Below, in pieces: positions 34,401 through 52,000 of a stretch of DNA of 64,000 nucleotides. The stretch is from Pocillopora damicornis. Lineage: Eukaryota. Made by a program: the position numbers. The stretch is taken from positions 620,001 through 684,000 of the forward strand of contig NW_020846475.1 of assembly GCF_003704095.1 (NCBI RefSeq). The letters run 5' to 3'. Within the stretch, counting starts at the first letter, position 1. Every line of letters starts with the position of its first letter.

Positions 34401-37400
34401 AAAGCACTTCGTCTCGGGAAAGATCAGGACTCTCGGGAAAACAAAAGTAACTGTTTCCCTCGGGACCATACATTAAGTGTATAGTGTAGTCTGATTGTCC
34501 GAGTGATTGTAGTTTTGAGAAGGGCTGTTGTTGACTTCCGCTGTTGGTGACTTCCGTTCAGGTCATCGAAACGTCAGTCACCACAACCGACAACAGTCCT
34601 TCTCAGGACCACACTCACTCGGCGAACGGTCAGACTAAACCATCACATGAGCAAATTGTCTAAGCATATGTACGTGTTTCGTGGTACACAGGAAGTGAGG
34701 TGCCAACAAGTTCCTTATATTTGAATCCAGTAACATGGCATTCAAATGATGTAAGGAACTCCAAGGTCATGCTACCAAATTCTTCTGGCTGCTTTAGATA
34801 GTTAATTCTGCTTCAGCGCCCGAAAACTGAATGTTCGATTTTTTTTTCAGGTTTAAAGTATCATCGGTCCTTCCATCGTTGCATTTAAAGTTATCAGATG
34901 AAAAATACAAGATGCTGATGAAGGTATAAAATTGTCATTTCGTACATGTAGTTTCACCAATTTGACTTATTTGACCGTTTTCCTTGTGTTATTTTCTGTC
35001 ATGAAGAGCATTGTAGCTACTAATCTTCAAGTTTTTCACAAAGTTCTTAGATCACTTACCGTTTGGAGTGCAGCAACCTGTGTTACTGGAAGAAAAGCGC
35101 GCTGATGTCAAATCGAAGGTAGGAAACATCGATTTTAATATCATAACGGGGTCTCTCGATGGAATTGATCATTTGATTGTTTGTTCCCAATATCGGTGTT
35201 GTCATGAAATGAGTGCCCGACAAATCAGATCACTGATGTACATCAGTTTTCATGCGCCTTACTCCCATAGGTCTGCGCGCTAACGTCAATCTTTTACTCG
35301 CTATTTTTTTTCCGACTCGTGGGACGGACCTCGTCGAAAAGTATGGCTGCTCGTAGTCAAGTGTATCTAAAACCTCAGCAAGAGAGGACATTATTCAAAA
35401 TAAGACAAGTTGAACTCGGGTTTTTCGGGACCAGCACGCAACCTGTTAGGCCAAGCGCAGCACACTTGACAGTGTATATAATGTATGTAAACCGTAACAA
35501 GCAGCACGTTATTCGAATAAATGCAACTTTGACTCGAGTTCTTTGTTATTGACATTAAAATCTGATCTGTTACCAGACGGAATGGAGACACAGCTCGTCA
35601 ACTCTTTCTTTAGAGGAAGCGAGCGATCTCGAAGCTTTGTTTAAAGACGCCATGGTTACTCGATTGGATAGTAGTGAAGGTAATAGAGTAATTTTGCGCC
35701 CTAATGAAGGGCTAACGCTCGAAACTGACGTCGGCTTTGAAACTCTTAACGGTGGCCAATTTTACGTTATCAACTCAGCTGATAATACGAAAGATCCTGT
35801 TATACTATCGCACCGACACAGCACTTTTAGACACAGCAGTCTTTTAGAAACTTGCCCCCTTTGAAGGTAATAGACACTGATCATTTTACATTCGGTATAA
35901 CATGGTTGGCGAAGTATTTGCGTCAACTGTTATGCTATGCTTCATGTGACCTTAATTTCGGTTGTCTTGATTTAATTTTCGCCAGATGAAGACGTTCAGT
36001 GGCATGACGCACAAGAGTACCTTCCAGAAGAAAGGTGGGTCATTAGGTTTGCCATTGGTTCTGATAAGGCCGGAAAGTAATTTTTTTCCTTAACGTCTCT
36101 TGTATGATATAAAATGATTGGGTATTGGATACAATTTTCAGCAGAAGAAACAAACGAATAAGAGTGTTGGTATCATCAAAGAGTGAGTTTTTAAAAAGCT
36201 TTTATAGGTTACTATTCCTAGCCTTGAGTGACATGTTTAGTTACATATTTCTGCGAAAAACTTGAGTTTGGTCATATGAGTCATGCTTGCAGAATGGTAA
36301 TTTCGTGGTATGGTGGGTTATACTACGAGTCAAAAAAAAAAAAAAAAAGAAAGATTGAGGTAGAAAGGAAAAAGGAGAATTGAAGGAAATTTATAGTTTT
36401 GCAGACTTTGAATTAACCAATCAAAAACACACTCTTTGGGTAAAATTTTTGTATTTTTGATATGTCACGATTACACATTTTGATTCATTCAGTCCTGAGG
36501 ATGGCCACATTCATCCCGTTGAAGCGCATGAAGTCGACAAGATCAAATTAGCAGGAGATTTCACCATTGAGAAGGTATTTTCGGGGTTATTCCATTTTCA
36601 CCATAACAAACTTTATTTAACGACAAATTCACTATCTGTTTTCGCGAGGCGACCTCGTGTGCATAGAAGTTAACGAAGAAGGAGCCTTTTCGTTTCACGA
36701 TAGTTTATACGCATGCCTCGACTTCGACACTTCAAAAGGTACTCTGTTAATAGTTATGGGACATTTTGATAAGAACTCAAAGCATCACAAACAAGACAAA
36801 AAACAACACAAAAAGGCAAAAGAAACGCGAACAAAAAAGAAAAAGGAATCAAACAAGCAAAAACAAATCTACGGAAAAAAACAAAGTCAAAAGCACAGTT
36901 GACAATGTTTATGTACTCTACTCGCAACAGTTTTATGTGGAGTTCATCTTAATGTAACCTGGCTTTTTTCAGCTTCTTATCACTGTGGACAAAGCAGATG
37001 AACAAAAAGCTGTTGGTAATCCATATTTATCTCTGGAAATACGGGATGTTGGCACCGATTTGGTCGTTCATTCGTGGGACATTCATGCCAAAGTTAAAAT
37101 TGGGTTTATGCAGCTCCTTGATAACCACTGGAAAGGTGAACTTAAAAAAAAATTATTATTTTATGTAGTCGTGGTGGATATGAGGTGGTAAATAGCTAAC
37201 GAAGGACTTAGCGCAGAGCGGGATATCACCCATGCAGCTCAACTCAACAAGCATGAGAGGTTGTCAGTTGATAATCCAATGAAATAGTTGAAAATCGGCC
37301 ATGAAAAAACTAATCTTCTGACGTATACACTTAAATAACTTGAAATAAAATTCTATGATTCTTTCTTCCTGGATACAGACGTTGATGGTAGCAACCTTTG

Positions 37401-49042: not shown

Positions 49043-52000
49043 TTTATTTAAACGATAATACACCCTTACAACTTGTATAATGTACTAAAAAGTTATTACC
49101 AAATTGCCTTCCTTCTTTACGTAGAGGTGTGATGGATACAAGTTCGTCTTCGGTGATCAAGCGACATCTCATTGAACCAATAAAACTAGAGGCAAACATC
49201 AAGCGTTCTCTATTACCTTCTTGCAATGAGATTCCAATCATAGATTGCTCAGCTACTCTGGACTTTGTCAAGGTATTTTTATTGTTTGTCTCACGATGTA
49301 GTTATTTCCTCTGTGGGGGCAACGTTTCGACTACAAAGTGAGGTGGACTGGTCACTCGTCACGTTATACCCATAATGCTCTGGTATCTTTTGCCGAAAAA
49401 AAAAAACGGAGATAGAGAATCCATTGCGAAAGATGTTAAATTTTGTTCAAATTTCACCATCCCAACTACCCTAATCTGTTTAGTGTTATTCTTGATGTTT
49501 GCTTCTGAAGAACACCTTTTGACTATGAATGGCATATTTTCTATAACCCTTGAAGGAAAACAAGAATTTGGTGTCAGATCAAGATTACAACTTCTACCTG
49601 ATAAATTCGAGTCTTCTCGTAACCTGTTTGCTGGATAACGTATCGATATTGTATGGAGAATTTACATGTGACTCGCCTCTGGGAGTTAAAAGGTTAACCC
49701 TTGCTTTTTTTCCCTTAGAAAATGAACAAAGAATATTTTCTTTCTCGAAAACGGATGCTCGTTAATTGAAAACGCCTTTGGACAATCGGAAGGCTGGGTA
49801 TAAATCCTTACTGGGGGACTTGACTTAATCAAAAGATATATTTATTTTTCCGATTGAATTTTTAACTGATACTCCACCACAGTCATTTAAAGGCTGTGGT
49901 TAACTTTTTACTGCCGCCGGCCGCACTGTCTCTATCAATGCACTTTCTTGGTTGAAATTGTAGTTTGCAAGTTATTTGTGTCGGTAATTGTTTTTTTAAT
50001 CTTTGTTTTCAGATGAATCTGGGTCGACAAGATTACCACGTTCTCACGACACTTTTTCAAGAAAATATGAAAGAAGCTGAAAGTGTGATACTGGAAGGTA
50101 CGAACACGTCTAGTGTCGTCTAGTATTAAATTGACTTTTAAGATGAAGCAGACATTGTTCTTGTTTGAAACTTACAGGAGGTGGGAACCCCATGCAACTT
50201 CTTTTTTTTTGCATTCTTTTGCTTTTCAGACCAAACGAGACTTGATCAAAGCTTGGCAGAGGAACAAGAGGAACGTATTGACCCGTCTACTGTAACAAAT
50301 ATCTCATCTGGTATGATATTATTTGCATTGATTATTTTCCATGCGATTGAAAATGACGAAAAACGTTGATAGTAACTGAAAAAGATCTGAACAAAGAAAA
50401 AAATGAAGTCAGCAATCGTTATAAACGTAAAATTCAAAACAGAAAGAATGTTTTACCCTGTCGACGAGTTATGAAACTTACTTAGAAACGGTTCGATGTA
50501 AAGAGTGATTATCTTTACAGAACCTGGTGTACCCGAGGAGACTGCGAAAAATGTGTGGGACAGAATGGTGTTTTCATTTGATCTTGCTGGTGCTAGTCTT
50601 ATTCTGTACAACAATGAGACTCCTTTGGTAAGTTAAGCGTTGATATTTTTACTGAAATTTGTTAGTTTAGTTGTGCACAGAGTGCAAAATGAAACCAATT
50701 CAAACTCGAGTTACCTTCGGCACTCATTTGAAAGTTACTTTATAGAGGTTCGGTTTACTTTAACAACTGCAGGACCCGTTTGATACACAGTCGTCGGTCT
50801 GCGATCCAGCTACAAAACTCTGTTTATGTCATGTGGAGGAAAGTGTAGTTACCGTGGTTTTGCCAAGTGACAGCTCTGTTCAAATACACTGTGTACTTAA
50901 TGGCTGTGTTGTCGAGGATGCCAGAGAAGGAACAATTTCTGCTTTTCCTAGGTAAGTGAATGAATGTAGGCTTGATAATTAAGTTTGTTTGTGACATCAA
51001 AGGAATTACGCTGTTTCCTCTGATAGTTGGCTAGGAGATTATAAACTGGTTATAGATGGTGCTGTCTTGATTACATAACGATAATTTTCTTGCTAAAATG
51101 TGTGCAATTTCTCTTTACATCATTTGTTCGCTGGAGGGGTAGGACCTGTGGGGTTAATACCTCTCTAATTTGAAGGTTTCGTGTCTTTTTTCCCAAAGGT
51201 TAGTGGACAAAAAGATGGCGACACACTCAGGAGTTCGAACATCTTCATCCTCTAAAGAAATGTGTGACGTACTTTTCTGTCAGTTACCGTCAGGGGAGAT
51301 GAAAGGTTTGCTATCGTTGTTTTAACCACTGATGAGTTACATAGTTGCATAATTCGTGCTGCAGTAAGGAATCGCGTGCATCTCCTTTTTGGCGAATTTA
51401 CTGCTACTTTTGAAAGTTCCAAGACAAAATCTGTGATTGCGAAAACATTGCTATTTTATTTTTCCTCCGGCTCATACTGGTTATTTCACTTTCTCATGTA
51501 TTTCTTTTCTTTTCTCTTTTTGTTTTCATCTTTTGCAGTCCAAGTGTCCTTGCAAAACGCTACCATTTTTGTCAACTTTCCTTTCTTGTTCATTTTACTG
51601 GAGTTCATCACCATTCCGCCATCCGACGTGAATCATCCTCGAGAGCCACAAGTCTCAGTAGTCAGTCAAACCTCTCTGGATGCTTCAGGTGTTAGGGACC
51701 CAGAAACTCCCAGGGAGGGGAGGGATGCACAGATACACAGGACTGAAAGTGGAGATGTCACTTCTACTGATGCTCCTAGTCAAGTAGATGCTGCAGCATC
51801 GCCTACTCAAGAGACGCAGCTGAAAATTGTTGTTCATGGTGTAGTGGAAGATCCAAACATTGTCTTACTTTCTGACGCTACAAACAAAGAGAGCGAGGCG
51901 CTTATTGTTCAGGTGATTGGATTTTGGTCGCTGTTTTTGAGCATTTTGATATTTATGTAATCAGATAGACAAAGATACAGAGGTTATCGCGATTGAATTA

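What the first reader, a model, noticed from the sequence alone, without database searches (positions are those of the whole stretch)
36973..50097. VPS13 lipid bridge lengthened by an exon-for-exon ~500-aa duplication, apparently paralleling vertebrate VPS13C
Seen: a 12-13 exon block is present twice in tandem, with conserved exon sizes and phases (74, 143, 52, 52, 39 and 78 nt identical) but strongly diverged sequence and no visible intron similarity. This is an old, fixed genomic duplication, and it begins just after the FFAT loop. Established: vertebrate VPS13C is longer than VPS13A because of an internal duplication of similar size (extra RBG repeats) in this part of the rod. Inference: either the long form is far older than vertebrates, or the same module was duplicated convergently to tune bridge length to a wider membrane contact. 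RBG number variation is known in general, so novelty for this lineage is unverified.
Basis: partly seen in the sequence, partly recalled or inferred. Interest (0 to 1): 0.72.

Follow-up and report, generated by a model that had tools for sequence, protein, structure and literature searches.

The report
Coral VPS13 gene with doubled middle
A stony-coral gene for the lipid-bridge protein VPS13 carries an old, in-frame tandem copy of about 500 amino acids, the same module that vertebrate VPS13C doubled independently, so the bridge should be a few nanometres longer.

Summary
On the + strand, 12 exons (36973-42517) recur in the same order at 43435-50097. Six pairs have identical lengths (74, 143, 52, 52, 39, 78 nt). 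Donor phase matches in 12 of 12 pairs and acceptor phase in 11 of 12. Protein identity is 31.6% (131 of 414) and there is no collinear nucleotide similarity.

The gene is a VPS13A/C-type gene, not VPS13D, in a scleractinian coral and not in human.

Both copies align to residues ~934-1402 of the single-copy Ptychodera VPS13A-like protein. They also align to the unit repeated in unnamed VPS13C-like proteins, which Levine 2022 calls RBG5-7.

A partitioned tree puts the two coral copies together (91.2/93) and the two VPS13C-like copies together (99.5/100). The shared-duplication tree is rejected (delta lnL 190.9, AU p 1.3e-5). The parallel with VPS13C is therefore convergent.

Open points: copy 1 has one exon junction that does not join in frame, there is no transcript evidence, and no spliced model was folded.

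The parts
20665..20763 (+). First coding exon of the VPS13 gene (chorein-N start); the gene runs from here to the end of the window
   Evidence: tblastn with the Ptychodera VPS13A-like protein P0038, residues 2-34, 60.6% identity
35614..35679 (+). Candidate exon carrying an FFAT-like stretch (acidic tract then LFKDAMV)
   Evidence: Open frame with best acceptor 35614 and donor 35679. A strict FFAT pattern is not met. Not tested further.
36493..36574 (+). Exon just before copy 1 (alternative acceptor 36525)
   Evidence: Splice scores and phases. Its similarity to the exon between the copies is not significant (score 17).
36973..37135 (+). Copy 1 exon 1 (163 nt)
   Evidence: pairs with 43435-43591
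37379..37452 (+). Copy 1 exon 2 (74 nt)
   Evidence: pairs with 44118-44191
38049..38191 (+). Copy 1 exon 3 (143 nt)
   Evidence: pairs with 44535-44677, 19 of 47 residues identical
38192..38882 (+). Interval that must hold one more small exon of copy 1 (length 2 mod 3), or a defect. Candidates are 38312-38397 and 38556-38638.
   Evidence: Phase mismatch between exon 3 (2 bases left over) and exon 4 (2 leading bases)
38883..39023 (+). Copy 1 exon 4 (141 nt)
   Evidence: pairs with 45112-45275
39114..39165 (+). Copy 1 exon 5 (52 nt)
   Evidence: Top splice score in its interval for the required phases. Only 1 of 16 residues is identical to its partner. Its placement rests on phase, order and fit to other VPS13 proteins.
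39647..39698 (+). Copy 1 exon 6 (52 nt)
40447..40485 (+). Copy 1 exon 7 (39 nt)
40610..40741 (+). Copy 1 exon 8 (132 nt)
40856..40933 (+). Copy 1 exon 9 (78 nt)
41518..41726 (+). Copy 1 exon 10 (209 nt), the best conserved exon
   Evidence: Sequence read. Pfam VPS13_M positions 134-182, E 9.7e-8. Copy-1-type fragments elsewhere are 59-80% identical.
42124..42262 (+). Copy 1 exon 11 (139 nt)
42445..42517 (+). Copy 1 exon 12 (73 nt), helix segment
42706..42836 (+). Linking exon between the copies: an acidic loop plus a strand. The alternative acceptor 42652 scored higher (8.5 against 6.2), so this start is one of two options. It has the same phases as 50521-50627.
43435..43591 (+). Copy 2 exon 1 (157 nt)
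44118..44191 (+). Copy 2 exon 2 (74 nt)
44535..44677 (+). Copy 2 exon 3 (143 nt)
   Evidence: weak match to Pfam VPS13_N positions 1231-1267
45112..45275 (+). Copy 2 exon 4 (164 nt)
45525..45576 (+). Copy 2 exon 5 (52 nt)
   Evidence: Top splice score in its interval
45995..46046 (+). Copy 2 exon 6 (52 nt)
46666..46704 (+). Copy 2 exon 7 (39 nt)
47122..47259 (+). Copy 2 exon 8 (138 nt)
47701..47778 (+). Copy 2 exon 9 (78 nt)
48231..48460 (+). Copy 2 exon 10 (230 nt)
   Evidence: Sequence read. It matches PDB VPS13C (9yqp_B) at 1234-1300 and at 1749-1816, E 3e-10. Copy-2-type fragments elsewhere reach 59-68% identity by blastp for five of the six (62-70% in the hmmer table); P0037 is lower, 47%.
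49125..49272 (+). Copy 2 exon 11 (148 nt)
50013..50097 (+). Copy 2 exon 12 (85 nt)
50521..50627 (+). Exon after copy 2, possible thirteenth exon of the unit
   Evidence: Phases equal to those of 42706-42836. It maps to P0038 residues 1455-1482.

Best explanation
The window comes from a scleractinian coral. Its VPS13A/C-type gene (a bridge-like lipid transfer protein) contains an old, in-frame tandem duplication of a 12-13 exon block. The block encodes about 490-520 residues.

The block corresponds to the module that vertebrate VPS13C, and separately VPS13D, also duplicated. Levine 2022 calls this module RBG5-7. Each copy runs from the first strands after the FFAT-side loop to the helix and acidic linker that close the module.

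The coral duplication arose independently of the vertebrate one. It happened in the lineage leading to this coral, long before the coral split from the relatives that carry both copy types.

Inferred consequence: the hydrophobic groove gains about three repeating beta-groove units. By analogy with the VPS13C deletion experiment this adds about 5 nm, so the protein could span a wider membrane contact.

Shown: the duplication itself, the gene's type, the module boundaries and the independent origin. Inferred: that all exons are spliced into one transcript, the number of RBG units, and the effect on length.
For: Duplication: 8 collinear ORF pairs and 12 exon pairs with conserved order. Six of 12 have identical lengths. 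Donor phase agrees in 12 of 12 and acceptor phase in 11 of 12. Copy 2 forms an unbroken in-frame chain of 13 exons.

Gene type: tblastn with P0038, named VPS13A-like [Ptychodera flava], gave 10 collinear HSPs and 442 bits. VPS13D-like P0033 gave 0 HSPs and P0011 gave 2. PDB VPS13C matches at E 3e-10. None of 10 downstream ORFs has a UBA domain.

Organism: a neighbouring S6-kinase exon is 99% identical to Desmophyllum pertusum, 95% to Nematostella and 88% to human.

Same module:
- Both copies map to P0038 residues ~934-1402.
- The unnamed VPS13C-like protein P0006 repeats residues 902-1362 at 1402-1859, and P0006 aligns collinearly with P0038 over residues 1-1405.
- The exon fragments of both coral copies fall in the same alignment columns as both P0006 copies for 10 of 12 exons. 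Exon 5 of both copies and exon 8 of copy 1 had to be re-placed by order.

Independence:
- Partitioned ML tree of 12 per-exon alignments (444 columns, 16 rows): coral c1+c2 91.2/93; VPS13C-like c1+c2 99.5/100, and those with P0079+P0070 100/100.
- The topology with c1 grouped with c1 and c2 with c2 is rejected (delta lnL 190.9, AU p 1.3e-5).
- Identity of coral c1 to P0006 c1 and c2 is 22.9% and 23.6%. For coral c2 it is 26.3% and 26.1%. There is no same-number preference.
- Summed per-exon alignment scores: c1 x c2 = 676, against at most 632 for any other protein.

Age and spread: 4 copy-1-type fragments (59-80% identical to c1, 36-39% to c2) and 6 copy-2-type fragments are among the 146 hits. 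Each type forms a clade with support 99 in the exon-10 tree.

Length effect (papers, passages read): VPS13C lacking residues 1235-1748 makes rods about 24 nm long instead of 30 nm and narrows the gap by about 5 nm (PMC9303930). The VPS13C insertion of about 500 residues is an internal duplication (PMC6168267). RBG5-7 was duplicated independently in VPS13C and VPS13D (PMC7613979).
Against: - Copy 1 exon 3 and exon 4 do not join in frame, and no acceptor of the right phase exists in the open frame. An extra exon is assumed but not shown.
- There is no transcript evidence for any junction.
- The sister grouping of the two coral copies is only moderately supported. Trees in which one copy alone groups with the Ptychodera and Antedon proteins are not rejected (delta lnL 4.4; AU p 0.065 and 0.097).
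- Both coral copies are long branches (0.93 and 0.97), so they may attract each other.
- Gene conversion within each lineage could mimic independent origin.
- The VPS13C-like rows (P0006, P0010) and most other rows carry no names.
- Exon 5 is almost dissimilar between the copies (1 of 16 identical).
- Profiles of exon 1 and of exon 11 found nothing in the PDB. Mapping to human VPS13C is therefore direct only for exon 10.
- The RBG count was not measured on a structure.
Confidence: 0.75

Rival explanations
1. The duplication is older than I infer. It predates the split between cnidarians and bilaterians (or at least ambulacrarians), and one copy was later lost in the single-copy lineages. On this reading the long form is ancestral for animals' VPS13A/C, but the VPS13C copies are still a later, separate event.
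For: Trees in which only c1 or only c2 groups with the Ptychodera and Antedon proteins are not rejected (AU p 0.097 and 0.065). c1-c2 identity (31.6%) is no higher than c1 or c2 against Ptychodera (30.5% and 29.3%). The stem of c1+c2 is short (0.18) compared with the copy branches (0.93 and 0.97).
Against: The best tree joins c1 and c2 (91.2/93), and the summed scores favour c1 x c2 (676 against 603 and 632). This reading needs losses in ambulacrarians, in the other single-copy rows and in the vertebrate ancestor.
Confidence: 0.12
2. The long form is ancient and shared with vertebrate VPS13C: copy 1 and copy 2 are orthologous to the two VPS13C copies.
For: The module boundaries are the same in the coral and in the VPS13C-like proteins. 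The copy-2 exon 10 matches both human VPS13C copies about equally (21.1 and 19.9 bits).
Against: The AU test rejects this topology (delta lnL 190.9, p 1.3e-5). The VPS13C-like copies are sisters, nested with single-copy P0079 and P0070 (99.5/100 and 100/100). There is no same-number preference in identity. Levine 2022 reports fly Vps13 with the VPS13A architecture.
Confidence: 0.03
3. The gene is the coral VPS13D orthologue, and the block is the known ancient VPS13D duplication.
For: The VPS13D copies are also only weakly similar to each other (and Levine 2022), as they are here.
Against: VPS13D-like P0033 gives 0 tblastn HSPs on the window and P0011 gives 2, against 10 for the VPS13A-like protein. 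In the exon-10 tree the two VPS13D motif copies form separate clades, away from both coral copies. None of 10 downstream ORFs has a UBA domain. The repeat offset in P0033 is about 654 residues, not about 500.
Confidence: 0.03
4. Only one block is used at a time, or one block is decaying. The two blocks would be alternative cassettes, or copy 1 would be partly a pseudo-block, so the protein is not longer.
For: Copy 1 has a junction that does not join in frame. Exon 12 of both copies ends in the same phase, so skipping a whole block would keep the frame.
Against: All 12 exons of both copies are open and have usable GT-AG sites. Copy-1-type and copy-2-type exon 10 are each conserved in other genomes, at 59-80% for copy 1 and mostly 59-68% for copy 2 (P0037 47%). 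That conservation argues for selection on both.
Confidence: 0.06
5. The tandem block is an assembly artefact.
For: None beyond the presence of N gaps elsewhere in the window.
Against: The copies share 31.6% protein identity and have no collinear DNA similarity. Both types exist in other genomes. No N run lies inside 36973-50097.
Confidence: 0.01

Closest known systems
Vertebrate VPS13C (15 RBG domains; internal duplication of about 500 residues, RBG5-7)
   Same: The same protein family and the same A/C branch, with the same module duplicated in tandem and in frame. The period is about 490-520 residues here, 515 in human VPS13C and about 497 in the unnamed VPS13C-like P0006. The junction lies in the loop after the closing helix.
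   Different: The origin is independent. The coral copies are far more diverged: 31.6% identity, against 45-48% between the copies of P0006 and of P0010 over the same columns. The coral has no separate short paralogue within this window.
VPS13D (15 RBG domains; older duplication of RBG5-7)
   Same: An old duplication whose copies are now only weakly similar. Levine 2022 infers that it arose independently of VPS13C's.
   Different: It is a different paralogue. The window matches VPS13D-like proteins poorly. The repeat offset is about 654 residues in P0033. No UBA domain was found here.
Single-copy VPS13A-like proteins of ambulacrarians (Ptychodera flava P0038, Antedon mediterranea P0146)
   Same: They are the closest full-length relatives found. 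They align collinearly from the chorein-N end to the middle region and group with the coral copies at 100/100.
   Different: They have no internal repeat. Eight named ambulacrarian proteins are 3482-3574 aa long.

Membership tests
VPS13 (bridge-like lipid transfer proteins, RBG superfamily) | Chorein-N sequence at the N-terminus | tested here: met
   P0038 residues 2-34 match 20665-20763 at 60.6% identity
VPS13 (bridge-like lipid transfer proteins, RBG superfamily) | Collinear similarity to named VPS13 proteins along the rod | tested here: met
   10 collinear tblastn HSPs with the Ptychodera VPS13A-like protein. Exon 10 matches PDB VPS13C at E 3e-10 and VPS13A at E 0.0014.
VPS13 (bridge-like lipid transfer proteins, RBG superfamily) | Pfam VPS13_N / VPS13_M above the curated cut-off | tested here: inconclusive
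   Single exons reach 31.1, 28.9 and 19.9 bits for VPS13_M against a whole-protein cut-off of 50. The spliced protein was not scored because the joined step was left out.
VPS13 (bridge-like lipid transfer proteins, RBG superfamily) | C-terminal VAB, ATG_C and PH regions | not testable with these tools
   The window ends at 64000, inside the gene.
VPS13A/C branch | Closer to A/C-type than to D-type proteins | tested here: met
   442 bits for the VPS13A-like protein, against 0 and 83 bits for two D-like proteins; trees
VPS13A/C branch | FFAT motif in the loop before the module | tested here: inconclusive
   Only a suboptimal FFAT-like stretch at about 35613-35657. A strict pattern finds none in a coding context.
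VPS13A/C branch | WWE domain inserted near the C-terminal part of the rod | not testable with these tools
   That region lies beyond the window.
VPS13C (vertebrate long paralogue) | The two copies are orthologous to VPS13C copy 1 and copy 2 | tested here: not met
   The AU test rejects this topology (p 1.3e-5). There is no same-number preference in identity.
VPS13C (vertebrate long paralogue) | Tandem duplication of the module that Levine 2022 calls RBG5-7 | tested here: met
   Both coral copies and both copies of the VPS13C-like proteins align to P0038 ~934-1402 and to the same columns. The RBG numbering is taken from the paper, not measured here.
VPS13D | UBA domain between the rod and the VAB region | tested here: not met
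   None of 10 downstream ORFs has a UBA match at E<=0.1. This is weak evidence, because exons were scanned one at a time.
VPS13D | Orthology to VPS13D | tested here: not met

The most novel reading that the evidence does not exclude
The RBG5-7 block behaves as a reusable extension cassette of the VPS13 bridge. It has now been doubled at the same boundaries at least three separate times: in VPS13D, in vertebrate VPS13C, and in a coral VPS13A/C-type gene. In the coral both copies end in the same reading phase. Skipping a whole block would therefore keep the frame and could let one gene make both a short and a long bridge.
Probability: 0.1. Interest if true: 0.7.

Novelty: new member of a known kind. 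Interest (0 to 1): 0.45.

Why it matters
Bridge length is thought to match the width of the membrane contact that a VPS13 protein spans. So far the only animal cases of lengthening discussed in the passages I read are VPS13C and VPS13D.

A third, independent doubling of the same module in a cnidarian would show that this segment is the place where the rod tolerates extension. It would also give a natural long/short comparison outside vertebrates.

My searches found no paper on this. 'VPS13, RBG, cnidaria' gave 0 papers. 'VPS13A, VPS13C, Nematostella' gave 1 paper, which is unrelated to the question. 'VPS13, internal duplication' gave 5 papers, none on invertebrate long forms.

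Tried and rejected
- The search for homologous proteins with a 78-aa exon and lengths 'longer' reaches only 2000 aa. It found nothing.
- I gave an unspliced frame of the window with a region, so that long candidates would be admitted.
- the atlas search with exon 10 gave only generic VPS13_M-type clusters and no useful taxon.
- two-sequence profiles of exon 1 and of exon 11 found no PDB chain at E<=10.
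- a strict FFAT pattern found nothing in a coding context.
- the VPS13C cryo-EM paper has nothing on the duplication.
- 8 minus-strand and 2 plus-strand ORFs in and next to the block gave no Pfam family above its cut-off.
- Rfam found no family in 35000-51500.
- similarity between the exon before copy 1, the linking exon and the exon after copy 2 is not significant (scores 14-19). The exact breakpoints stay open.

Considered and rejected: VPS13D orthology, a shared ancient long form, and an assembly artefact (see rival explanations).

Not used: structure prediction, fold search, complex prediction, the search for related loci and the DNA search on genome contigs (a prokaryote collection).

Full report
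**Scope and rules kept.** The window is eukaryotic, with G+C about 0.37. It has three N runs, at 4779-4898, 10085-10184 and 52930-52939. I left these untouched, and none lies in the finding. I did not build a spliced protein: every search used single exons, and the joined step (searching or folding a spliced model) was left out. For that reason no structure of the coral protein was predicted and no whole-protein Pfam score was obtained. The window is not human. An exon of the neighbouring S6-kinase gene (16296-16535) is 99% identical to a protein named Ribosomal protein S6 kinase alpha-2 [Desmophyllum pertusum]. It is 95% identical to Nematostella, 94% to Exaiptasia and 88% to human. The source is therefore a scleractinian coral or a very close relative of one.

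- The best pairs were E 5.8e-13 (41518-41751 against 48177-48461, 35% over 74 aa) and E 7.1e-10 (38049-38192 against 44502-44678, 42.6% over 47 aa).
- All other pairs in the table involve interspersed repeats or a low-complexity stretch. No other pair links VPS13 exons.
- The signal is therefore far above any general similarity among the repeating units of the protein.

A more sensitive comparison added further pairs.

**Exon boundaries.** I scored splice sites separately in each copy and tracked reading phase. This gave 12 exon pairs (copy 1 / copy 2):

| Exon | Copy 1 | Copy 2 | Length, nt (c1/c2) |
|---|---|---|---|
| 1 | 36973-37135 | 43435-43591 | 163/157 |
| 2 | 37379-37452 | 44118-44191 | 74/74 |
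| 3 | 38049-38191 | 44535-44677 | 143/143 |
| 4 | 38883-39023 | 45112-45275 | 141/164 |
| 5 | 39114-39165 | 45525-45576 | 52/52 |
| 6 | 39647-39698 | 45995-46046 | 52/52 |
| 7 | 40447-40485 | 46666-46704 | 39/39 |
| 8 | 40610-40741 | 47122-47259 | 132/138 |
| 9 | 40856-40933 | 47701-47778 | 78/78 |
| 10 | 41518-41726 | 48231-48460 | 209/230 |
| 11 | 42124-42262 | 49125-49272 | 139/148 |
| 12 | 42445-42517 | 50013-50097 | 73/85 |

- Donor phase agrees in 12 of 12 pairs and acceptor phase in 11 of 12.
- blastn between the two blocks (word 9, E<=1) gave nine short hits, none collinear. Neither introns nor exons keep DNA similarity.
- Over the 12 per-exon alignments, 131 of 414 aligned residues are identical (31.6%).
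- Exon 5 is the weak pair (1 of 16 identical). It rests on being the top-scoring 52-nt exon of the required phases in each interval and on fitting the pattern of other VPS13 proteins.

**Anatomical caveats.**
- Copy 2 forms an unbroken in-frame chain through 50521-50627.
- In copy 1, exon 3 leaves two bases and exon 4 starts with two. No acceptor of the right phase exists inside the open frame. Either a small exon of length 2 mod 3 is missing (candidates 38312-38397 and 38556-38638) or copy 1 is damaged there.
- The exon between the copies (42652 or 42706-42836) and the exon after copy 2 (50521-50627) have the same phases. A 13-exon unit ending at 50627 is therefore the simplest model, but their sequence similarity is not significant.
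- One period is about 489 residues for copy 2 and about 503-522 for copy 1. These are my sums of the exon lengths.

**What gene is it?**
- Exon 10 of both copies matches Pfam VPS13_M at positions about 132-205 of 838 (E 9.7e-8 and 4.4e-7). This is below the whole-protein cut-off, as expected for single exons.
- Exon 10 of copy 2 matches PDB chain 9yqp_B (VPS13C) at E 3e-10. It hits two places, 1234-1300 and 1749-1816, with 21.1 and 19.9 bits. It also matches VPS13A.
- A full HMMER scan of 1.84 billion representatives with that exon gave 146 hits.
- Of six long hits that I compared with the window by tblastn, P0038 matched best: 10 collinear HSPs from the chorein-N exon at 20665 to 54849, 442 bits. 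VPS13D-like P0033 gave no HSP and P0011 gave two.
- names P0038 as VPS13A-like [Ptychodera flava] and P0146 as VPS13A-like [Antedon mediterranea].
- No UBA domain was found in 10 downstream ORFs.
- The gene is therefore of the VPS13A/C type. It starts near 20665 and runs off the window's end.

**Which module is duplicated?**
- Both copies map to P0038 residues about 934-1402.
- P0038 and P0146 have no internal repeat.
- Two unnamed VPS13C-like proteins carry one. In P0006, residues 902-1362 recur at 1402-1859 with 35-69% identity. P0010 shows the same pattern.
- P0006 aligns collinearly with P0038 over residues 1-1405.
- When the exon peptides were added one by one to an alignment of this unit from 14 protein segments, 10 of 12 exons of both copies fell in the same columns as both P0006 copies. 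Exon 5 of both copies and exon 8 of copy 1 were misplaced and were realigned within the columns dictated by order.
- In the coral and in P0006 alike, the unit begins at the first strands after the loop and ends with a helix followed by an acidic linker.
- According to Levine 2022 (PMC7613979, passages read), the VPS13C and VPS13D duplications each cover RBG5-7 and about 500 residues. He infers that they are independent. I take the RBG numbering from that paper; I did not measure it.
- Kumar et al. 2018 (PMC6168267, passages read) describe the VPS13C segment as an insertion of about 500 residues that arose from internal duplication.

**Shared or convergent?** I gave the 12 per-exon alignments (444 columns, 16 rows) to IQ-TREE as separate partitions.
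- The two coral copies are sisters (SH-aLRT 91.2, bootstrap 93). With the Ptychodera and Antedon proteins they are split from the rest at 100/100.
- The copy-1 rows of P0006 and P0010 group together (100/100), as do the copy-2 rows (99.8/100).
- Those two groups are sisters (99.5/100) and sit with single-copy P0079 and P0070 (100/100).
- Forcing coral copy 1 with VPS13C-like copy 1 and coral copy 2 with copy 2 costs 190.9 log-likelihood units and is rejected (AU p 1.3e-5).
- Trees in which only one coral copy groups with the ambulacrarian proteins are not rejected (delta lnL 4.4; AU p 0.065 and 0.097).
- Identities give no hint of same-number orthology. Coral c1 against P0006 c1 and c2 is 22.9% and 23.6%. 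Coral c2 is 26.3% and 26.1%.
- Summed per-exon alignment scores are highest for c1 against c2 (676). The next best are 632 and 603, for Ptychodera.
- A single-exon tree of 155 exon-10 segments agrees. The VPS13C-like copies cluster with each other, and the two VPS13D motif copies form their own clades. The coral copies lie elsewhere, in a weakly supported group with the ambulacrarian rows.
- Four hits (P0026, P0114, P0108, P0130) were left out of all scripts from then on, because they might be of vertebrate or human origin.

**Age and spread.**
- Four short ORF fragments among the 146 hits are 59-80% identical to copy 1 exon 10 and only 36-39% identical to copy 2.
- Six others belong with copy 2. 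Five of them are 59-68% identical to copy 2 by blastp (62-70% in the table). P0037 scores lower (47%).
- Each set forms a clade with its coral copy at support 99.
- Other genomes therefore carry both copies, and the duplication long predates their divergence.
- The short stem (0.18) and long copy branches (0.93 and 0.97) also point to an old event, or to fast divergence after it.
- A self-repeat scan covered 34 of the long hits. Eight were scanned (P0005, P0006, P0009, P0010, P0011, P0012, P0033, P0038) and 26. It found no repeat of this module in P0038, P0146, P0082, P0095, P0107, P0070, P0104 or P0139. P0009 and P0079 each showed only one weak hit (33% over 42 aa, offset 579; 29%, offset about 540), apparently to the earlier motif of the rod. 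Repeats were present in the VPS13C-like rows and in a few distant proteins (P0005, P0012, P0020, P0059).
- Eight named ambulacrarian VPS13A-like proteins are 3482-3574 aa long.

**How it most likely works.** VPS13 proteins are rods whose beta-groove carries lipids between membranes. Cai et al. 2022 (PMC9303930, passages read) removed residues 1235-1748 of VPS13C. These limits lie one residue inside the two exon-10 match starts, so the deletion is one period. The rods became about 24 nm long instead of 30 nm, and the membrane gap narrowed by about 5 nm. By analogy, the extra coral block should add about three groove units and about 5 nm. This step is inference. So is the assumption that both blocks are spliced into one mRNA.

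**Surroundings.**
- The eight minus-strand ORFs of 85-106 aa that I scanned, in or next to the block, gave no Pfam family above its cut-off.
- Rfam finds nothing in 35000-51500.
- A suboptimal FFAT-like stretch lies at about 35613-35657, in a candidate exon 35614-35679 two exons before copy 1.

**Novelty and verdict.** Internal doubling of this module is known for VPS13C and VPS13D. A third, independent case in a coral VPS13A/C-type gene is a new member of a known kind. Three literature searches found nothing on it. Interest is moderate. The finding bears on where the bridge can be lengthened, but variation in RBG number is already accepted.

Noticed in passing
window 7864-17900 (+): A p90 RSK-type ribosomal S6 kinase gene lies upstream of VPS13 on the same strand. 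Its exon 16296-16535 is 99% identical to the Desmophyllum pertusum protein, which places the window in a stony coral.
   Followed up: partly
window 24338-24562, 28361-28459, 45629-45703; 17965-18197, 28701-28909, 41009-41205, 53943-53999; 35716-35861, 48872-49048; 11030-11179, 23092-23235, 49547-49762: Several families of short interspersed repeats, open in one frame, sit in VPS13 introns and upstream. They account for all self-matches other than the duplication. From memory, not from any call, they resemble repeats common in coral genomes.
   Followed up: no
window 29696-30487: A low-complexity stretch rich in S, P, L and F is open in all three + frames and matches itself. It lies inside a VPS13 intron.
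   Followed up: no
window 38191-38883: Copy 1 exon 3 and exon 4 do not join in frame. A small unrecognised exon or a real defect must lie here.
   Followed up: partly
window 51268-51957, 55621-55977, 57242-57727: There are unusually long open exon candidates with acidic or serine-rich, probably disordered, sequence downstream of the duplication. They had no Pfam match.
   Followed up: partly
proteins P0005, P0012, P0020, P0059 (unnamed hits): Other distant VPS13-like proteins also carry internal repeats. P0005 and P0012 have three units of about 350 aa. P0020 has three of about 770 aa. P0059 has two of about 465 aa at up to 100% identity. Rod lengthening by tandem repeats seems to recur widely.
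   Followed up: partly
window 48231-48460 against 41518-41726: Copy 2 exon 10 scores higher than copy 1 against most other VPS13 proteins, and copy 1 lacks seven codons there. Copy 1 looks like the more derived copy. The search query was copy 2, which biases this comparison.
   Followed up: partly
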